64,000 nt of DNA from the human T2T-CHM13v2.0 reference genome, Homo sapiens, in the NCBI RefSeq assembly GCF_009914755.1, contig NC_060941.1; one strand, 5' to 3'. The position numbers were made by a program, and so were the translations under genes. Shown here in pieces: positions 4,130-55,117 of the stretch (its first letter is position 1; every line of letters starts with the position of its first letter). Below the pieces are notes generated by a model, which was not told the origin of the DNA, made no database searches, and saw nothing but the letters and a program-made list of their open reading frames with translations.

Positions 4130-4130
<1 letters not shown>

Positions 4131-4192
<62 letters not shown>
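4131..4192 (+). repeat. (AC)~31 microsatellite in the last KCTD2 intron
   Basis: Perfect AC dinucleotide run. Confidence 0.97.
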
Positions 4193-4194
<2 letters not shown>

Positions 4195-33486: not shown

Positions 33487-34323
<837 letters not shown>

Positions 34324-45433: not shown

Positions 45434-45644
45434 GGTTGCTCCTGGACGCCACCAACAACTTTAGCTATGTTTTCTACATGTCCAGCTTCTTCCTCATCTC
45501 AGCTGCCCTCTTCATGGGTGGCAGCTTCTACGCCCTGCAGAAGAAGGAGCAAGGCAAGCAGGCTGTCGCGGCGGATGCCCTGGAGCGGGATCTTTTCTTG
45601 GAAGCCAAAGACGGTCCTGGGAAGCAACGGTCCCCTGAGATCAT
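45434..45644 (+). CDS. SLC16A5: SLC16A5 coding exon 4 (GLLLDATNNFSYVFY...RSPEI)
   Basis: ccccag| acceptor; donor AT|gtatgt; read-through gives MYVTSV* ending 45663. Confidence 0.93.
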
Positions 45645-45902
45645 GTATGTAACCAGCGTCTAAGACCCAGGGTTCATCTGTGTGACCAGTGTCTGAGTCC
45701 TGGGATCACTGAGTGAACACTGTCTCAGCCCAGCCCAGGAGGGGGACCTCTAGCTCCTTCACCAGGGGCTTGGGTGAAGAGTAGCCCAGGAAGCCCGGGC
45801 TGTCCAGGCTCTGCAAGCTGGGACTCTGCCAGGAGCTGGGACTTTGGAGGCTGGCCTCTGAAGATGCCCTGAGAAACTCTTTTTTTTTTTTTTTTTTTTT
45901 GA

Positions 45903-46043
<141 letters not shown>

Positions 46044-47343
46044 TAGCTGAGATTACAGGCATGCGCCACCACTCCCGGCTAATTTTGTCTTTTAGTAGAG
46101 ATGGGGTTTCTCTATGTTGGTCAGGCTGGTCTCCAACTTCCGACCTCAGGTGATCTGCCCACCTCAGCCTCCCAAAGTGCTGGGATTACAGGCGTGAGCC
46201 ACCGTGCCCAGCCAGAGGAACCCTTTTCTAACAACTAGCGGAATCCAGGAGCAGGCCCTCCGGACTTTTTTCCTTGGGTACCAGGGTACTCGGGGCCCAG
46301 GAACCTGGGTCTGAGCCCTGCTCAGGTTTGTCCCAGCCGGCTCAGCGCAGCTGGCTGTGTGTTGCTGCTCCTACAGCTCAATGCACTGGACCTTCTCGTC
46401 CAGCCTGGATGCCTCTATCATTTCTCTTTGTCTTTCTCTGGCCTCCATACCGTTCTGAAGAGCTCACCTTCCTCTAGGTTCCTCCTGCCCTGCTCTTCCC
46501 AAGTGACCCAGCCCTCACCTGTAGGGCAGCCAAGGCTGGTGGTGCAGCTGCCCCCAGTGAAGGTCATTGGGCATCGCACTGGGCAGTGCAGAGGTCCAGG
46601 CTGAGGAGTTGAGTGGCGCGCCCATCCTGGCGCCTGTGCAGAGAACGGGAGGGGGGCCCCTGGCTTGGATCCTAGAATCGGTGAAGTCTGAGGGCCCCCC
46701 TGCAGTCTCAGCAGGACCTGCTCTATCAAGGGGCTTCCTCCTTCCTTTCCCCACCCTGTCTCCTTGGCGGGGAGGATTAGTGCCAGGTGGGGGAAGCCAG
46801 ACATTTGACTGACGGGAGAGGAAGGCTTGCCAGGCAGCCCGAAGACTGTTGTGAAAATGGGGCTGCTTTTGCAAGGGAAGCTCTTTTACTCCCCATTCCT
46901 GTCCTCCAGAGGCCCCCCTTTTCCCTGCCGTGTTATTGGTGTCAACCCTGGGGTAAGTGGCTGGCTGGACTCACCCCTGCTCCCCGTACACCTGTGCCTG
47001 TGACTGGCGGTCCAAGCTCCCCACACACACATCTTGCTGGTGCCTTTCCCTGAAGTCACCACCCAGGGGCTGGCTGTCATCAGCCCATTCTTGTCCCAGC
47101 AGGGTACCGAGGGAATGATAAAACAGAATGTGTTTGAATTACACACAAAAATGTTCCCTGCAGCAGGTCATAAACTCTGTGAACTAATGAAGCTGACAAA
47201 CAGAGCTGGAGTACGTTTCCCCTCACCCTTCCTTTCCTCCTAGCTCAGCAAGGGGTGCTCAGGTTCAGGATGTTGTTTGTTGATTCAGGCTCAACCAGGC
47301 TCCGCAAGAAAACCTTATCAGGAGATTTTATTTTCATGAACAG

Positions 47344-47497
47344 GTGCCAGTCTTCCCGCCAGCCACGTCCAGCTGGCGTCAATAAGCATCTTTGGGGATG
47401 TCCTGCCTCCTCCAGGACCAGCCATGAGTGGCTCTTATGGCCAAAGGCGGTACTGCAGGCCAAGCAAACGGCTCTGGGCTGGAATAGCCCTACCTGA
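47344..47497 (+). CDS. SLC16A5: SLC16A5 terminal coding exon (MCQSSRQPRPAG...ALGWNSPT*)
   Basis: gaacag| acceptor; exon lengths 199+144+810+211+154 = 1518 nt = 505 aa, the known human MCT6 length. Confidence 0.88.
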
Positions 47498-47570
47498 GTG
47501 CCCTGTTTGACTCCGCCACTATCTGCCATGTGAGTTGGGCAAATTGTTGACCACCTCTGAGCCTTGAAAA
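47470..47570 (+). mobile_element. MIR-like fragment overlapping the SLC16A5 stop codon
   Basis: ggctctgggctgga...ctccgccactatctgccatgtgagttgggcaaattg...ctctgagcct resembles the MIR core ctctgccacttactagctgtgtgaccttgggcaagt...ctctgagcctc. Confidence 0.55.
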
Positions 47571-47599
47571 AGTAGGAGGTTACTTTGTTAGAGCAAAAT

Positions 47600-47605
47600 A
47601 ATAAA
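47600..47605 (+). terminator. SLC16A5 polyadenylation signal
   Basis: AATAAA ~100 nt after the stop codon. Confidence 0.75.
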
Positions 47606-47934
47606 ATTTAATTTTAAAAAAGAAAACGTAGGAGGTTCGTTTGGATGAGCTAGTCTCTTCCGGTTGAAAAGTCTGACTCGGTGAGCATCCTGACGACTCC
47701 ATTTCCTTCTGGCTCCCCACCCAGTCTTACACTTGGCTGCCATCAATACCACATGCTCTGAAGGGAGAGTGCTTGCATGTACTTTGCCAAATCCTGTCTG
47801 CTCCATCTCAGTTGAATGGAAAAGGAGGGAGGTGGGGCTGGTAGATAGGTGCTTTTGGTGCTAGTATCCACCAGGTTTTGTGTGCATCCCGTAATGAGCC
47901 CACTTCCTGAAAACATTTAAAGAAAAAAGATATC

Positions 47935-49580
<1,646 letters not shown>

Positions 49581-50035
49581 GGGAGAAGACCAATGAGGGA
49601 AGATGGGGTGGCCCATCTGATTCAGCAATCCCCATCTAGCTGATTGCCTGCGAACCTCTAGAGAAGGTCTGGGGCAGTTCCTGGGCAGGGAGGGATGGAG
49701 CTTACTTCCATCCTCCCTGTTTCTGGGCTCCTATTTGCTGCTCTGTCCAGCAAGAGGCAGAGAAACCCCTTGGGCACCTAGGGGTAAGATGCACTTCCCA
49801 GGCTGCAGAGGCTCCCAAGAGAAGCCAAAGGGCTTTGGTGAGGGTCCTGGGGCCTAGGTACCCAGACTAAGTTAGAAACTCCTGCCTCAGAGGGTGTACA
49901 TAGGGCAGGGGCTGACCACAAGGACCTGAAACCTCAGAGGTGAGGCCTGCTTCCAATGGGGCTGCAGCTGGCTGGAGTGTGACGGCCACTCTGCCTTCAT
50001 CCGGGCCCAGGGCTTAAGATAATGGTCCTTGCCTT

Positions 50036-50475
50036 TGTCAGCCTAAATAACAGAGAGGCTCTCTCAAAGAAAATGATATCTATTTGGGCATAGGGCATTG
50101 CAATGGTAGTATCCATGCCATAGTAAACTATATGGGTATTCAGGGAGGTAAAGGAAGACAGGCTTTAAGGGAAAAAATAGGATTACATAATTGTTTTGAA
50201 ATATTTATCCTTAGGTAGAAGGATTAATAACAAGGGTGACCGCTCAAGGTTGGACAAGCGGTTGCTGGGCAGATGGCCATTCAAAAGTATGTTTTGTGCA
50301 AGGTTGTGACGCCCTTTGTGCAAGGTTGTGGTTTTTGCAGAGTCTTTGTGATAGTTTTCATTATCAGGTATTTATGCACGAGAACCCTCTTGTCATGGGT
50401 TTCTTGGGCTGTGTCCGGGTTTTTTTGTTCTGTTTTTTAACACAAGTGACTCCATTTAGATTAACAACTTTTGCA
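50036..50475 (-). mobile_element. Solo ERV1 LTR (MER31/MER67-like)
   Basis: TG...CA termini, ~440 bp; resembles recalled MER31 consensus (gagaggctctct..aaagaaaatgatat, gggaggtaaaggaagaca); family and strand tentative. Confidence 0.6.
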
Positions 50476-51017
50476 CTCTCAGGACACTCACAGCCTAAGC
50501 CACCTCTACCCCTACGTTGTCAAATGCGATGGGAGTGTGGCTAGACCACCTCCTTCCCTGGTGCTTTGTTTCCTGTAACCACGAGCAATCTATCACACAC
50601 CCGCTTCCTGATAATCTCCGAGAAGGAATCGGCCGAAGGGCTTCAGCATCCAGAAAGCCCCGAAAGCGCCACAATCAAGGCTCCTCCTCGGGCTCCCCCG
50701 TGCTGCCCCGGGCGCGCGCCATCCACCCGGCTGACAAAAAGCACCAGGACATGACCCAGTACCCTTTGATTTCTGTCCAGAGGTGGCGGACCCACCTCGG
50801 GGCTGGGATGGAGGGCGGGTCGGGGTCGCTAGGCTTTTTGCAAAAGGGGCAAAGGACTGATGGGGGGCGTAAGGAGCTGACGCCCGCGCTCCAAAGGGGC
50901 GTCCTGGTCAAGGAGGATGGGCCGCGCCCCCGCCAGCCGTGGGGACCCTGGAGGTGCTTCTGCCTCGACGTCCTCCAACATGGGTGCTGCCAGACTCTGC
51001 TGCGCTCCTGAGTTGCT

Positions 51018-51240
51018 CCTGGCGGAATTCCAGCCACCCGACATGGGTGTCTCATTTTCGGCTTCTGGGCCATGTCGGGACGGCGGAGGACCCCGGGGGA
51101 CCGGCGGGAGAGTGGGAAAGGTGGGGCGGGAAAGCCGAGCGAGGCCCTCACTCGCCCATCTGTTGGCGGGGGCGGCAAGTGGGTTTCTTTCTTGCGTTCA
51201 GATTTTGCAGTAATTTGCATCTGGACATGGGATACGGGAG
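51018..51240 (-). repeat. Inverted paralogous copy of the ARMC7 5' UTR + start of CDS (pairs with 51574-51810)
   Basis: Reverse complement aligns colinearly with 51574-51810, including ATGGCCCAGAAGCCGAA (MAQKPK). Confidence 0.93.
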
Positions 51241-51755
51241 GCCAGGCTGCTCCTCGCAGTACACCCACCCACGCCTGCACCTGCCTCAGCGAAGCCGCTC
51301 GCCGCTGGTTCCAGCACAGGCTAAAGAGCTTCGGCATCCAGAAAACCAGAAGCGCGCCGCGCACGCGCGCCAAGGAGTTCGGCGACGGCCCCGCCCCTTC
51401 GGGGGTAGGGACAGCGCGGCTTCCGCCGGGAGCCCGGAACCGAGCCCAGGAGCCGGGGACGGTGCGCCAGTGCCCCCTCCGCGAGCCCCAACCAGTAGAC
51501 GGTTCCCTGTCTCCCGCGCCCCAATTTCGATTTTCAAACGCAACTCCTACAGGATTCTGAGACCCCGTCCCATCTCCCATATCCCATTTCCAGCTGCAAA
51601 TTACTGCAGAATCTGAACCCAGGAAAGAAACCCATTTGCCGACCCCCTCTTCCCTCTCCAGACAGGTGGAGAGCGGGTGAGGGTCTCGCTCGGCTTTCCC
51701 CCTGCACCTTTCCCACCCTCCCGCCCGTCCCTGGGGGTCCTCCGTCACCGCGGCC

Positions 51756-51846
51756 ATGGCCCAGAAGCCGAAGGTGGACCCCCACGTCGGGCGGCTGGGA
51801 TACCTGCAGGCGCTGGTCACGGAATTCCAGGAGACCCAAAGCCAAG
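51756..51846 (+). CDS. ARMC7: ARMC7 coding exon 1 (MAQKPKVDPHVGRLGYLQALVTEFQETQSQ)
   Basis: Strong Kozak gcggccATGG; donor G|gtgaga. Confidence 0.95.
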
Positions 51847-51929
51847 GTGAGAGCCACGGTGGGATCAGGTGGCAGGGTCCGCTGTGACCGCCGCCCGGAC
51901 CTGGCTTCAGTGCCGCTTTCCCGTTGCAG

Positions 51930-52073
51930 ACGCCAAGGAGCAAGTCCTCGCCAACCTCGCCAACTTCGCTTATGACCCCAGCAACTACGAGTATCTGCGG
52001 CAGCTGCAGGTCCTGGATTTATTTCTCGATTCGCTGTCGGAGGAGAATGAGACCCTGGTGGAGTTTGCTATTG
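51930..52073 (+). CDS. ARMC7: ARMC7 coding exon 2 ([48 protein letters not shown]); remainder of gene lies beyond the window
   Basis: ttgcag| ... |gtaagg, 144 nt, phase 1-1; conserved [10 protein letters not shown] motif. Confidence 0.95.
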
Positions 52074-52147
52074 GTAAGGGCGGGGCCCGTTCCCTAGATG
52101 CCTAAATGGGCCAGGGTGAGATAAGTGAATTAGAAGTGAGTCCTTGG

Positions 52148-55117
<2,970 letters not shown>

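What the first reader, a model, noticed from the sequence alone, without database searches (positions are those of the whole stretch)
51018..51810. Head-to-head inverted duplication of the ARMC7 5' UTR/start codon across its own promoter
Seen: the reverse complement of 51018-51240 aligns with 51574-51810 (7 mismatches in the first 68 nt; roughly 80-85% overall by eye, with one ~15-20 nt indel). The 333-bp spacer holds the GC box and ETS motifs. The arms are not Alu or simple repeat; the right arm is the ARMC7 leader plus its first ~18 codons. The promoter therefore faces near-identical leaders and the same ATG GCC CAG AAG CCG AA in both directions. Inference: a local inverted duplication produced a mirror-image transcription unit, giving a divergent RNA with an ARMC7-like 5' end. 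Any RNA spanning both arms (for example read-through from SLC16A5 3.5 kb upstream) would fold into a ~220-bp hairpin that hides the ARMC7 AUG and could be an ADAR/Dicer substrate. The arms could also support inversion or gene conversion.
Basis: partly seen in the sequence, partly recalled or inferred. Interest (0 to 1): 0.85.

Follow-up and report, generated by a model that had tools for sequence, protein, structure and literature searches.

The report
Inverted copy of ARMC7 leader upstream
A roughly 230-base piece of the first exon of the human ARMC7 gene, start codon included, was copied long ago in reverse orientation just upstream of the gene's own promoter; the copy is real and unique in the genome but looks like a decaying relic rather than a working mirror gene.

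Summary
Window 51015-51240 is the reverse complement of 51574-51813, with 191 of 225 aligned bases identical (84.9%), five indels and a 333-nt spacer. In the whole T2T genome each arm matches only itself and the other arm (E 1.5e-49). Neither arm is repeat-masked.

The right arm is part of ARMC7 exon 1: 182 nt of 5'UTR plus codons 1-19. Its peptide start is conserved in 9 of 9 placental orthologues aligned, so the right arm is the parent. The left copy is frameshifted after about codon 7, carries no ARMC7 start site or promoter sequence, and its 132-aa ORF has no relatives.

Divergence (K2P 0.17) suggests an age of tens of millions of years; this rests on recalled rates. No minus-strand gene is annotated.

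The long hairpin is computationally real (-515 kcal/mol, z -25.7) but needs an RNA that spans both arms. The only annotated candidates are 12 Gnomon SLC16A5 models. They splice into an acceptor created inside the left arm (51201|51202) and keep only about 39 nt of that arm.

Arm-to-arm inversion or gene conversion is unlikely now, because the longest identical run is 18 nt. My verdict is an old local inverted duplication, a new member of a known kind, with function unproven.

The parts
51015..51240 (-). Left arm: the decayed inverted copy (226 nt) of part of ARMC7 exon 1. Read on the minus strand it resembles the ARMC7 leader plus the start codon.
   Evidence: 191/225 identical to the right arm; its only other genomic match is the right arm; not masked
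51241..51573 (.). Spacer of 333 nt: the core of the ARMC7 CpG-island promoter. It holds the RefSeq start site at 51436, GC-box, ETS-like and NRF1-like motif matches, and a RefSeq 'silencer' element at 51427-51506. It is not itself palindromic.
   Evidence: annotation; motifs; CpG o/e about 1.0 at 51200-51500; spacer halves inverted: score 8 vs shuffles 9.6 +/- 1.6
51574..51813 (+). Right arm: the parent sequence (240 nt). It covers ARMC7 exon 1 from +139 of the transcript: 5'UTR 51574-51755 and codons 1-19 (51756-51813).
   Evidence: exon 51436-51846, CDS from 51756; MAQKPKVDP identical in 9 of 9 placental orthologues aligned
51071..51073 (-). Mirror ATG in the left arm. It opens a 132-codon minus-strand ORF (51073 down to 50678) that shares only MAQKPK with ARMC7 before a 1-nt indel shifts the frame.
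   Evidence: (18/18 block); no homologues
51756..51758 (+). ARMC7 start codon. In the predicted hairpin of a spanning + strand RNA it pairs with 51071-51073.
51202..51616 (+). Alternative terminal coding exon of 12 Gnomon SLC16A5 models. Its 3' splice site (pyrimidine tract plus AG at 51200-51201) lies inside the left arm and is the reverse complement of a purine-rich stretch of the ARMC7 leader. The ORF runs across the ARMC7 promoter and stops at TGA 51614-51616 in the right arm.
   Evidence: 12 XM models; 11 end at 51616 and one at 51560; splice context, 138-residue Arg/Pro-rich tail; exon ends close a stem of about 37 bp, z -6.0
50500..52000 (.). CpG island that contains both arms (GC 0.56-0.72, CpG o/e 0.6-1.0).

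Best explanation
A fragment of ARMC7 exon 1 (about 182 nt of 5'UTR plus the first 19 or so codons) was copied once, in reverse orientation, to a site 333 bp upstream, inside the gene's own CpG island.

The likely mechanism is a replication template switch or fold-back event; this is inferred. The right arm is the working original. The left arm is a copy that has since drifted: 15% substitutions, five indels and a frameshift. The event is old, tens of millions of years, inferred from K2P 0.17 and recalled primate substitution rates. It should therefore be shared with other primates.

Most likely the copy has no selected function. Its effects would be by-products of its position:
- (a) Any upstream-antisense RNA from this CpG-island promoter would run through an ARMC7-leader-like sequence with the same ATG context. 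No such RNA was shown here.
- (b) The inversion turned a purine-rich leader stretch into a pyrimidine tract plus AG. RefSeq's Gnomon SLC16A5 models use this as a 3' splice site.
- (c) Unspliced SLC16A5 read-through RNA would fold into a hairpin with about 205 inter-arm pairs that includes the ARMC7 AUG.

The confidence of 0.7 is for the whole statement. That it is a locus-specific inverted duplication with the right arm as parent I put at about 0.95. That it has no selected function I put at about 0.65-0.7.
For: - Inverted repeat real and highly significant: and (E 1.5e-49).
- Unique to this locus. Each arm query returned 2 of 2 scored matches: itself and the other arm.
- Arms unmasked. The only masked stretches within 49000-53500 are 48985-49592 and 52142-53223.
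- Control in the 64-kb window: of 1951 inverted pairs at E<=1e-5, only 3 have both arms <20% masked. This pair is the strongest by far, at 202 bits against 58 and 52.
- Direction of copying. ARMC7 starts MAQKPKVDP in 9 of 9 placental orthologues aligned. Of the 10 mismatches in the coding part, 7 would be nonsynonymous in ARMC7, so they must lie on the left arm (my reading of the list).
- Decay. A 1-nt indel after about codon 7 shifts the frame. No homologue was found for the 132-aa or 422-aa ORFs, and no Pfam match.
- No sign of selection for pairing. 13 of 19 transitions are G-U compatible on the + strand, binomial p 0.17.
- Similarity stops sharply at both ends. Spacer halves and outer flanks score at or below shuffles.
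- Splice-site by-product.
- Hairpin.
- Mechanism. Local template switching is described as a one-step route to hairpin-forming inverted repeats in PMC5453318 (abstract and four passages read).
Against: - No other species' DNA could be examined. The age, the claim that the arms drift neutrally, and the absence of gene conversion are all inferences.
- The inner 68 nt are more alike (90%) than the rest (about 83%). This could be chance, local constraint or a past conversion tract.
- The transition:transversion ratio (19:15) is low for neutral mammalian DNA.
- The copy has stayed inside a CpG island with CpG o/e 0.7-0.8, so it lies in regulatory chromatin and could well bind factors.
- Template-switch events documented in the papers I saw are short (fragments of at least 10 bp). 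A 226-nt copy placed 333 bp away is larger than that class.
- A second short direct repeat (50631-50670 and 51319-51358) hints that the history may be more complex than one event.
- Twelve Gnomon models share one junction. That is one piece of evidence whose read support I could not see.
Confidence: 0.7

Rival explanations
1. The repeat is a working cis-regulatory RNA hairpin. SLC16A5 read-through transcripts carry the left arm, pair with the ARMC7 leader and AUG (in cis, or in trans with ARMC7 mRNA), and thereby lower ARMC7 translation or feed ADAR or Dicer.
For: - Predicted hairpin of -514.7 kcal/mol against -340.7 +/- 6.8 for 20 shuffles.
- 205 inter-arm pairs, longest uninterrupted helix 28 bp, AUG paired.
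- Trans duplex of left-arm RNA with ARMC7 exon 1 of -396 kcal/mol.
- RefSeq Gnomon models show same-strand transcription from SLC16A5 reaching 51202-51616.
- Intramolecular inverted Alu pairs are a major A-to-I editing target (PMC526178; listing and start of abstract only).
Against: - The annotated models splice out all but 39 nt of the left arm, so the mature RNA has only a stem of about 37 bp that does not cover the AUG.
- ARMC7 mRNA itself starts at 51436 and lacks the left arm. Its exon 1 alone folds with z of only -2.25.
- There is no significant excess of pairing-preserving substitutions (13 of 19, p 0.17).
- No editing, small-RNA or expression data were available.
- No Rfam family matches the arms.
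Confidence: 0.08
2. The left arm is the 5' end of a real divergent transcription unit: an upstream-antisense lncRNA or small-ORF gene that inherited an ARMC7-type leader and start codon.
For: - The geometry fits. The left arm lies 196 nt upstream of the ARMC7 start site, inside the CpG island.
- The mirror ATG keeps 18 of 18 bases of context and opens a 132-codon ORF.
- The minus-strand frame is stop-free for 447 codons, reached by 0 of 1000 global and 2 of 1000 block shuffles.
- There is no AATAAA or ATTAAA on the minus strand between 51450 and 48000.
- Bidirectional promoters have been proposed as a source of lineage-specific transcripts (PMC3583895; listing and start of abstract only).
Against: - RefSeq annotates no minus-strand gene in the window (and the annotation supplied).
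- The copy lacks the ARMC7 start site and the first 138 nt of the leader.
- The frame is shifted after about codon 7, and the ORF is Arg/Pro/Gly-rich.
- The 422-aa query had 977 candidates, none with E<=0.001. The 132-aa query had no candidate at all. Proteins known from samples alone were left out, so these blanks are weaker than they look.
- No Pfam family matched.
- Only one strong 5' splice-site-like motif lies on the minus strand within 3.4 kb, GTGAGT at 50491.
Confidence: 0.1
3. Both arms belong to a dispersed repeat, for example the terminal inverted repeats of an old DNA transposon, which ARMC7 later took over as leader and start codon.
For: The total size (799 nt) and the long inverted ends around a unique core resemble a non-autonomous DNA transposon.
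Against: - No other copy in 3.1 Gb at E<=10.
- Not soft-masked.
- No target-site duplication at the outer flanks.
- The right arm encodes an N-terminus shared by 9 of 9 placental orthologues aligned, and ARMC7 homologues reach sea urchin, insects and an oyster. The coding end is therefore not transposon-derived.
- Caveat: the genome search skips very common words, and closed regions are not shown.
Confidence: 0.02
4. The arms are kept similar by occasional gene conversion or template switching between them, so the duplication is much older than its divergence suggests.
For: - Identity is uneven: 61 of 68 in the inner block and 18 of 18 around the ATG, against about 80% elsewhere.
- The coding part, where only the left arm can change at nonsynonymous sites, is no less diverged (48 of 58) than the UTR part (143 of 167), where both arms can change.
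- Template switching between non-identical inverted repeats homogenises arms in yeast (PMC8604942; listing and start of abstract only).
Against: - The numbers are small, and the differences between blocks are within sampling noise.
- The longest identical run is 18 nt.
- No outgroup was available to detect conversion tracts.
Confidence: 0.1

Closest known systems
Inverted repeats and hairpins made by local template switching during replication (Loytynoja and Goldman 2017, PMC5453318; follow-ups PMC8794818 and PMC10710096)
   Same: A nearby sequence is copied in reverse complement in one step, giving an inverted repeat with a spacer that can fold as an RNA hairpin. No transposon is involved.
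   Different: The events catalogued there are short: the filter passage I read requires fragments of at least 10 bp. Here the copy is 226 nt, lies 333 bp away, and includes a gene's start codon. The junctions are too decayed to show microhomology. For the two follow-up papers I saw only the listing and the start of the abstract.
Hairpin-RNA loci born from inverted duplication of a gene fragment: plant proto-miRNA genes, Drosophila hpRNA loci, mouse oocyte endo-siRNA pseudogene hairpins (recalled; PMC5392987 seen only as a listing)
   Same: One arm is a copy of a protein-coding gene's sequence, so any hairpin product would be complementary to that gene's mRNA.
   Different: In those loci both arms are transcribed together from an outside promoter and small RNAs are documented. 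Here the gene's own promoter sits in the loop, so the normal ARMC7 transcript carries one arm only. No small-RNA evidence was available.
Inverted Alu pairs in transcripts as ADAR substrates (PMC526178; listing and start of abstract)
   Same: Arms of a few hundred nt at about 80-85% complementarity within 1 kb, which would give long imperfect dsRNA if co-transcribed.
   Different: The arms here are single-copy gene sequence and not Alu. They straddle a promoter rather than lying in an intron or 3'UTR.
Divergent (bidirectional) CpG-island promoters with upstream-antisense RNA (PMC4085477 and PMC3583895; listings and starts of abstracts)
   Same: A CpG-island promoter with sequence on both sides that could be transcribed in opposite directions.
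   Different: Ordinary divergent promoters do not have homologous sequence on the two sides. Here the upstream side mimics the gene's own leader. No minus-strand transcript is annotated.
Large inverted segmental duplications that mediate inversions, such as F8 int22h (PMC12382273; listing and start of abstract)
   Same: Paired inverted copies within one locus.
   Different: Those copies are kilobases long and nearly identical. These are about 230 nt at 85% identity with an 18-nt longest perfect run, so recombination between them is not expected.

Membership tests
Dispersed repeat or transposable element (Alu, MIR, DNA transposon with terminal inverted repeats) | Multiple copies elsewhere in the genome | tested here: not met
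   each arm (queries of 311 and 301 nt, E<=10) matched only itself and the other arm. Caveat: closed regions are not shown and very common words are skipped.
Dispersed repeat or transposable element | Masked as a repeat in the reference | tested here: not met
   the masked stretches near the locus are 48985-49592 and 52142-53223 only. The table lists stretches of 100 bases or more, without family names.
Dispersed repeat or transposable element | Target-site duplication flanking the unit | tested here: not met
   the outer flanks 50995-51014 and 51814-51833 share no direct repeat. Decay could have erased a short one.
Local inverted (fold-back or template-switch) duplication of a gene fragment | Two locus-specific copies in opposite orientation, separated by a short unique spacer | tested here: met
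   for the arms; the spacer is not palindromic and the outer flanks are unrelated.
Local inverted duplication of a gene fragment | One copy is the functional parent and the other a decayed derivative | tested here: met
   the N-terminus encoded by the right arm is conserved in 9 of 9 placental sequences aligned; frameshift, and 7 of 10 coding mismatches are nonsynonymous, so they lie in the left arm.
Local inverted duplication of a gene fragment | Microhomology or a template-switch signature at the junctions | tested here: inconclusive
   no microhomology can be recognised. At 15% divergence, and with an outer boundary uncertain by about 20 nt, none would be expected to survive.
Processed pseudogene (retrocopy) of ARMC7 | The copy continues across the exon 1/exon 2 junction without the intron | tested here: not met
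   rc(50600-51014) against 51814-52140, which contains intron 1 and exon 2, scores 10 against shuffles of 11.5 +/- 1.5. The similarity ends inside exon 1.
Bidirectional promoter with a paralogous divergent gene | An annotated or conserved gene on the minus strand | tested here: not met
   RefSeq has none; no protein relatives in named sources; no Pfam match.
Bidirectional promoter with a paralogous divergent gene | Minus-strand transcription initiation in the spacer | not testable with these tools
Hairpin-RNA, endo-siRNA or miRNA locus | A transcript containing both arms | tested here: inconclusive
   12 Gnomon SLC16A5 models cover 51202-51616, i.e. 39 nt of the left arm and 43 nt of the right (one model ends at 51560, before the right arm). 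No model spans both whole arms.
Hairpin-RNA, endo-siRNA or miRNA locus | Small RNAs or a curated RNA family | tested here: not met
   in 50400-52200 at E<=1, Rfam gives only an Alu-derived SRP fragment and a chance HOTTIP match, both outside the arms. Small-RNA data are not testable here.
ADAR substrate | Long intramolecular dsRNA | tested here: met
   in silico only and conditional on a spanning RNA: 205 inter-arm pairs and helices of 28, 24, 22 and 22 bp.
ADAR substrate | Observed A-to-I editing | not testable with these tools
   No editing database or reads were available.
Inverted repeats competent for homologous recombination (inversion of the spacer) | Long uninterrupted identity between the arms | tested here: not met
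   the longest perfect run is 18 nt at 84.9% identity. The requirement of 100-200 bp or more of identity in mammals is recalled, not tested.

The most novel reading that the evidence does not exclude
The inverted copy couples two neighbouring genes. When SLC16A5 transcription reads through or splices into the left arm, the resulting RNA carries an antisense-like image of the ARMC7 leader and AUG. It could pair with the ARMC7 leader in cis (a 37-bp stem in the spliced form, about 205 pairs in the unspliced form) or in trans with ARMC7 mRNA. Expression of a monocarboxylate transporter gene would then tune translation, editing or stability of the mRNA of ARMC7, a gene linked in the literature to the minor spliceosome. 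At the same time the upstream-antisense RNA would carry an ARMC7-type start context heading a new 132-codon ORF. My evidence excludes neither possibility.
Probability: 0.07. Interest if true: 0.6.

Novelty: new member of a known kind. Interest (0 to 1): 0.3.

Why it matters
If the relic reading is right, this is a clean, datable example of a mid-sized inverted duplication, larger than catalogued template switches and far smaller than segmental duplications. It lies inside the CpG-island promoter of a gene that the paper listings link to cell-line essentiality and U12 splicing (listings and starts of abstracts only).

It shows how one such event can create new signals at once: a splice acceptor, a mirrored G-quadruplex motif, a second start-codon context, and hairpin potential. 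It also explains why RefSeq's SLC16A5 gene span now overlaps ARMC7.

There is a practical consequence. Reads, probes, guides or primers aimed at the ARMC7 leader or start codon have an 85%-identical inverted target 0.5 kb upstream.

If the hairpin or divergent-unit readings were right, it would be a rare mammalian case of a gene regulated through an inverted copy of its own 5' end.

Tried and rejected
- Palindromy of the spacer, and extension of similarity beyond the arms: rejected. Scores were at or below the shuffles.
- Retrocopy origin: rejected. There is no similarity to intron 1 or exon 2.
- Transposon origin: rejected.
- Known RNA family: none in the arms.
- Protein-coding potential of the minus strand. 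The 422-aa ORF search gave 977 candidates, none with E<=0.001. The 132-aa ORF had no candidate. There were no Pfam hits for these ORFs or for two + strand ORFs.
- Selection for RNA pairing: 13 of 19 transitions are G-U compatible, p 0.17, not significant.
- Cross-species dating: not possible. No non-human vertebrate DNA is reachable with these tools. I could not search for primate counterparts of the 592-aa SLC16A5 Gnomon isoform either. The query would have had to be a spliced (joined) protein, and the contiguous tail (137 aa) is outside the length band needed to find 592-aa proteins.
- Promoter survey for rarity. I planned 100 regions holding 269 start sites on chr17. I obtained 20 regions, trimmed by the tool to 10 kb each, holding 39 usable start sites. 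0 of 39 had a non-masked inverted repeat longer than a 22-nt palindrome. The sample is small and biased towards start-site-dense regions, so it gives only a loose upper bound.
- Literature. ARMC7+SLC16A5 returned 7 papers, none on this structure by title or abstract start. ARMC7 alone returned 65 papers, 25 listed, none on the promoter repeat. 'SLC16A5-ARMC7' returned 0 papers. 'inverted duplication / first exon / bidirectional promoter / human' returned 348 papers, 15 listed, none on ARMC7. One search was badly targeted: with min_terms 2, none of the 25 papers listed contained ARMC7. Conjoined-gene, editing-site or inverted-repeat tables in supplements could list this locus, and I could not see them.
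Full report
**1. Observation**

The region was read directly and scanned for repeats. Three collinear inverted segments appear:
- 51168-51240 with 51574-51646 (73 nt, 89%).
- 51084-51183 with 51645-51744 (100 nt, 79%).
- 51057-51074 with 51755-51772 (18 of 18, the ATG GCC CAG AAG CCG AA block).

A gapped alignment joins them into a left arm 51015-51240 (226 nt) and a right arm 51574-51813 (240 nt), separated by 333 nt.
- 191 of 225 aligned columns are identical (84.9%; 79.3% with the 16 gap columns).
- There are 19 transitions and 15 transversions, and five indels of 10, 1, 3, 1 and 1 nt.
- K2P distance is 0.170. 12 of the 34 mismatches are in CpG context.
- Without CpG-context columns, 22 of 182 differ (JC 0.132).

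The local score of 136.5 compares with 12.2 +/- 2.0 for 500 dinucleotide shuffles, none reaching it. The outer end is uncertain by about 20 nt.

**2. Not a dispersed repeat**

Whole-genome searches with each arm (E up to 10) returned only the arm itself and its partner: 79% identity, E 1.5e-49, 2 of 2 scored candidates in each search. The RefSeq-derived mask covers only two stretches nearby, 48985-49592 and 52142-53223, both Alu-like by their repeats. Neither arm is masked.

In the whole 64-kb window, 1951 inverted pairs reach E<=1e-5. Only 3 have both arms less than 20% masked. The ARMC7 pair (202 bits) far exceeds the other two, which are 63-66 nt, 52-58 bits and 30 kb apart. There is no target-site duplication at the outer flanks.

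A small survey of other chr17 promoters found no comparable structure. Of 39 start sites examined, 0 had a non-masked inverted repeat longer than a 22-nt palindrome. It is also biased towards start-site-dense regions.

**3. What the arms are**

By RefSeq, ARMC7 exon 1 is 51436-51846 and the CDS starts at 51756. The right arm is therefore transcript positions +139 to +378: 182 nt of 5'UTR and codons 1-19. The start site and the first 138 nt of the leader lie in the spacer and are not duplicated.

A protein search with ARMC7 exon 3 (fetched) gave 295 hits. I aligned 22 of them, chosen across taxa. All 9 placental sequences begin MAQKPKVDP and are nearly identical through residue 19. Monotreme, marsupial and more distant sequences differ at the extreme N-terminus. 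So the right arm carries the old, constrained sequence and is the parent.

In the left copy, a 1-nt indel after about codon 7 shifts the frame. Of the 10 mismatches in the coding part, 7 would change the ARMC7 protein, so they must have occurred in the left arm (my reading of the list against the codon phase). Similarity ends abruptly at both ends. The spacer halves are not mutually inverted, the outer flanks are unrelated, and there is no match to intron 1 or exon 2. That rules out a longer palindrome and a retrocopy.

**4. Age (inference)**

The inputs are K of about 0.17 between the arms (0.13 without CpG columns) and a catarrhine-type rate of about 1e-9 per site per year per lineage. That rate is recalled, not computed. 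The split would then be roughly 35-80 million years old, and older if the right arm is constrained. The structure should therefore be shared with other primates. No non-human DNA could be reached to test this.

**5. Setting**

Both arms lie in one CpG island of about 1.5 kb (about 50500-52000) whose CpG o/e peaks at about 1.0 in the spacer. The spacer holds GC-box, ETS-like and NRF1-like motif matches and a RefSeq 'silencer' element at 51427-51506.

By construction the arms mirror other signals:
- A G-quadruplex-type motif lies on the + strand at 51095-51130 and on the minus strand at 51712-51731.
- A perfect octamer (ATTTGCAT) is present only in the left arm, at 51213.

**6. Transcripts**

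RefSeq has no minus-strand gene here. It does have 12 Gnomon SLC16A5 models that skip the usual last exon and splice from 45644 to 51202. Eleven of them end at 51616, at a TGA stop (51614-51616); one ends at 51560 in another frame.

The acceptor, a pyrimidine tract followed by AG at 51200-51201, lies inside the left arm. It is the reverse complement of a purine-rich stretch of the ARMC7 leader, so the inversion itself created it. The added coding tail is a 138-residue Arg/Pro-rich read-out of the ARMC7 promoter, with no Pfam match. All 12 models share this one junction. I could not see its read support.

Because of these models, the SLC16A5 and ARMC7 gene spans overlap on the same strand (51436-51616).

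**7. Hairpin**

A + strand RNA covering 51015-51813 is predicted to fold at -514.7 kcal/mol, against -340.7 +/- 6.8 for 20 shuffles (z -25.7). It has 205 inter-arm pairs, 15 of them G-U, and helices of up to 28 bp. The ARMC7 AUG pairs with 51071-51073. The minus-strand RNA folds similarly.

The spliced Gnomon exon 51202-51616 keeps only the inner 39 nt of the left arm. It closes a stem of about 37 bp around the spacer (z -6.0) that does not reach the AUG. ARMC7 exon 1 alone is unremarkable (z -2.25).

There is no significant excess of pairing-preserving changes: 13 of 19 transitions are G-U compatible on the + strand, p 0.17. No Rfam family matches the arms.

**8. Coding potential of the mirror unit**

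The mirror ATG (51073-51071, minus strand) opens a 132-codon ORF. That ORF is the tail of a 422-aa TTG-ORF, within a 447-codon stop-free frame running from 52021 to 50678. The length of that frame is reached by 0 of 1000 global and 2 of 1000 block shuffles.

Neither ORF has a relative in named protein sources or a Pfam domain. The composition is that of translated GC-rich DNA. I treat the long frame as an unexplained side observation.

**9. Recombination**

The longest perfect match between the arms is 18 nt. Inversion of the spacer or ongoing gene conversion is therefore unlikely today. The identity threshold I apply here is recalled.

**10. Mechanism and comparison**

The simplest origin is a single replication template switch or fold-back copy. 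Local template switching is described as a one-step source of hairpin-forming inverted repeats in PMC5453318 (abstract and four passages read). The events catalogued there are much shorter.

A weak direct repeat, 50631-50670 with 51319-51358, suggests the history may include a second small copy. It is 30 of 40 identical. Its core 17-mer pattern occurs only twice in the genome, both here, although I derived the pattern from the two copies.

Other analogues differ in defining features; these are listed in the membership table:
- Gene-fragment hairpin loci in plants, flies and mouse oocytes (recalled).
- Inverted Alu pairs as editing substrates (PMC526178; abstract start only).
- Divergent promoters.
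- Large inversion-mediating duplications.

**11. Novelty and verdict**

Four targeted literature searches found nothing on this structure. Supplements were closed.

It is a real, locus-specific, old inverted duplication of the ARMC7 leader and start codon: a new member of a known kind. The functional claims (mirror transcription unit, AUG-hiding hairpin, recombination) are respectively unshown, conditional on an unobserved unspliced read-through RNA, and unlikely.

Interest is 0.3. The most concrete consequence is the splice acceptor the copy donates to SLC16A5 read-through models.

Noticed in passing
window 50631-50670 and 51319-51358: A short direct repeat inside the same CpG island: 30 of 40 identical, core 17-mer 16 of 17. 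Local score is 20 against a shuffle maximum of 18.5 (0 of 200). The degenerate 17-mer occurs only twice in the whole genome, both here, but I derived the pattern from the two copies. It may be a second small duplication or a shared motif.
   Followed up: partly
window 50678-52021, minus strand: A stop-free frame of 447 codons (TTG-ORF of 422 aa at 50675-51943) runs antisense through ARMC7 exons 2 and 1, the promoter, the left arm and beyond. It is longer than 1000 of 1000 global and 998 of 1000 block dinucleotide shuffles. No homologue in named sources and no Pfam domain.
   Followed up: yes
window 45644 -> 51202-51616, + strand: Twelve Gnomon SLC16A5 models use an alternative last exon that lies across the ARMC7 promoter and start site, so the two gene spans overlap by 181 nt on the same strand. 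If such RNAs continue into ARMC7 exon 2 they would be conjoined, probably decay-prone transcripts. 'SLC16A5-ARMC7' occurs in no searchable paper.
   Followed up: partly
window 51095-51130 (+) and 51712-51731 (-): Mirror-image G-quadruplex-type motifs, one in each arm. Each lies on the strand that would be the template for transcription running away from the promoter. The ARMC7 leader RNA itself is C/T-rich, with negative GC skew downstream of the start site.
   Followed up: no
window 51213-51220: A perfect octamer motif (ATTTGCAT) is present only in the left arm. The right-arm counterpart has one mismatch.
   Followed up: no
window 50293-50308 and 50315-50330: Two identical 16-nt copies 22 nt apart, just upstream of the CpG island.
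   Followed up: no
window 48000-51450, minus strand: There is no AATAAA or ATTAAA on the minus strand for 3.4 kb upstream of the ARMC7 promoter, and only one strong 5' splice-site-like hexamer (GTGAGT at 50491). Upstream-antisense regions are usually described as rich in poly(A) signals (recalled).
   Followed up: no
window 4130-4194 vs 34146-34241: The only other unmasked inverted matches in the window: 63-66 nt at 78-80% identity, 30 kb apart, between the KCTD2 and SLC16A5 regions. Probably a short unmasked repeat fragment.
   Followed up: no
L015 (chr17:7138882-7148881), PHF23 start site +674 to +695: A perfect 22-nt palindrome. It was the only unmasked inverted match among the 39 surveyed promoters.
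   Followed up: no
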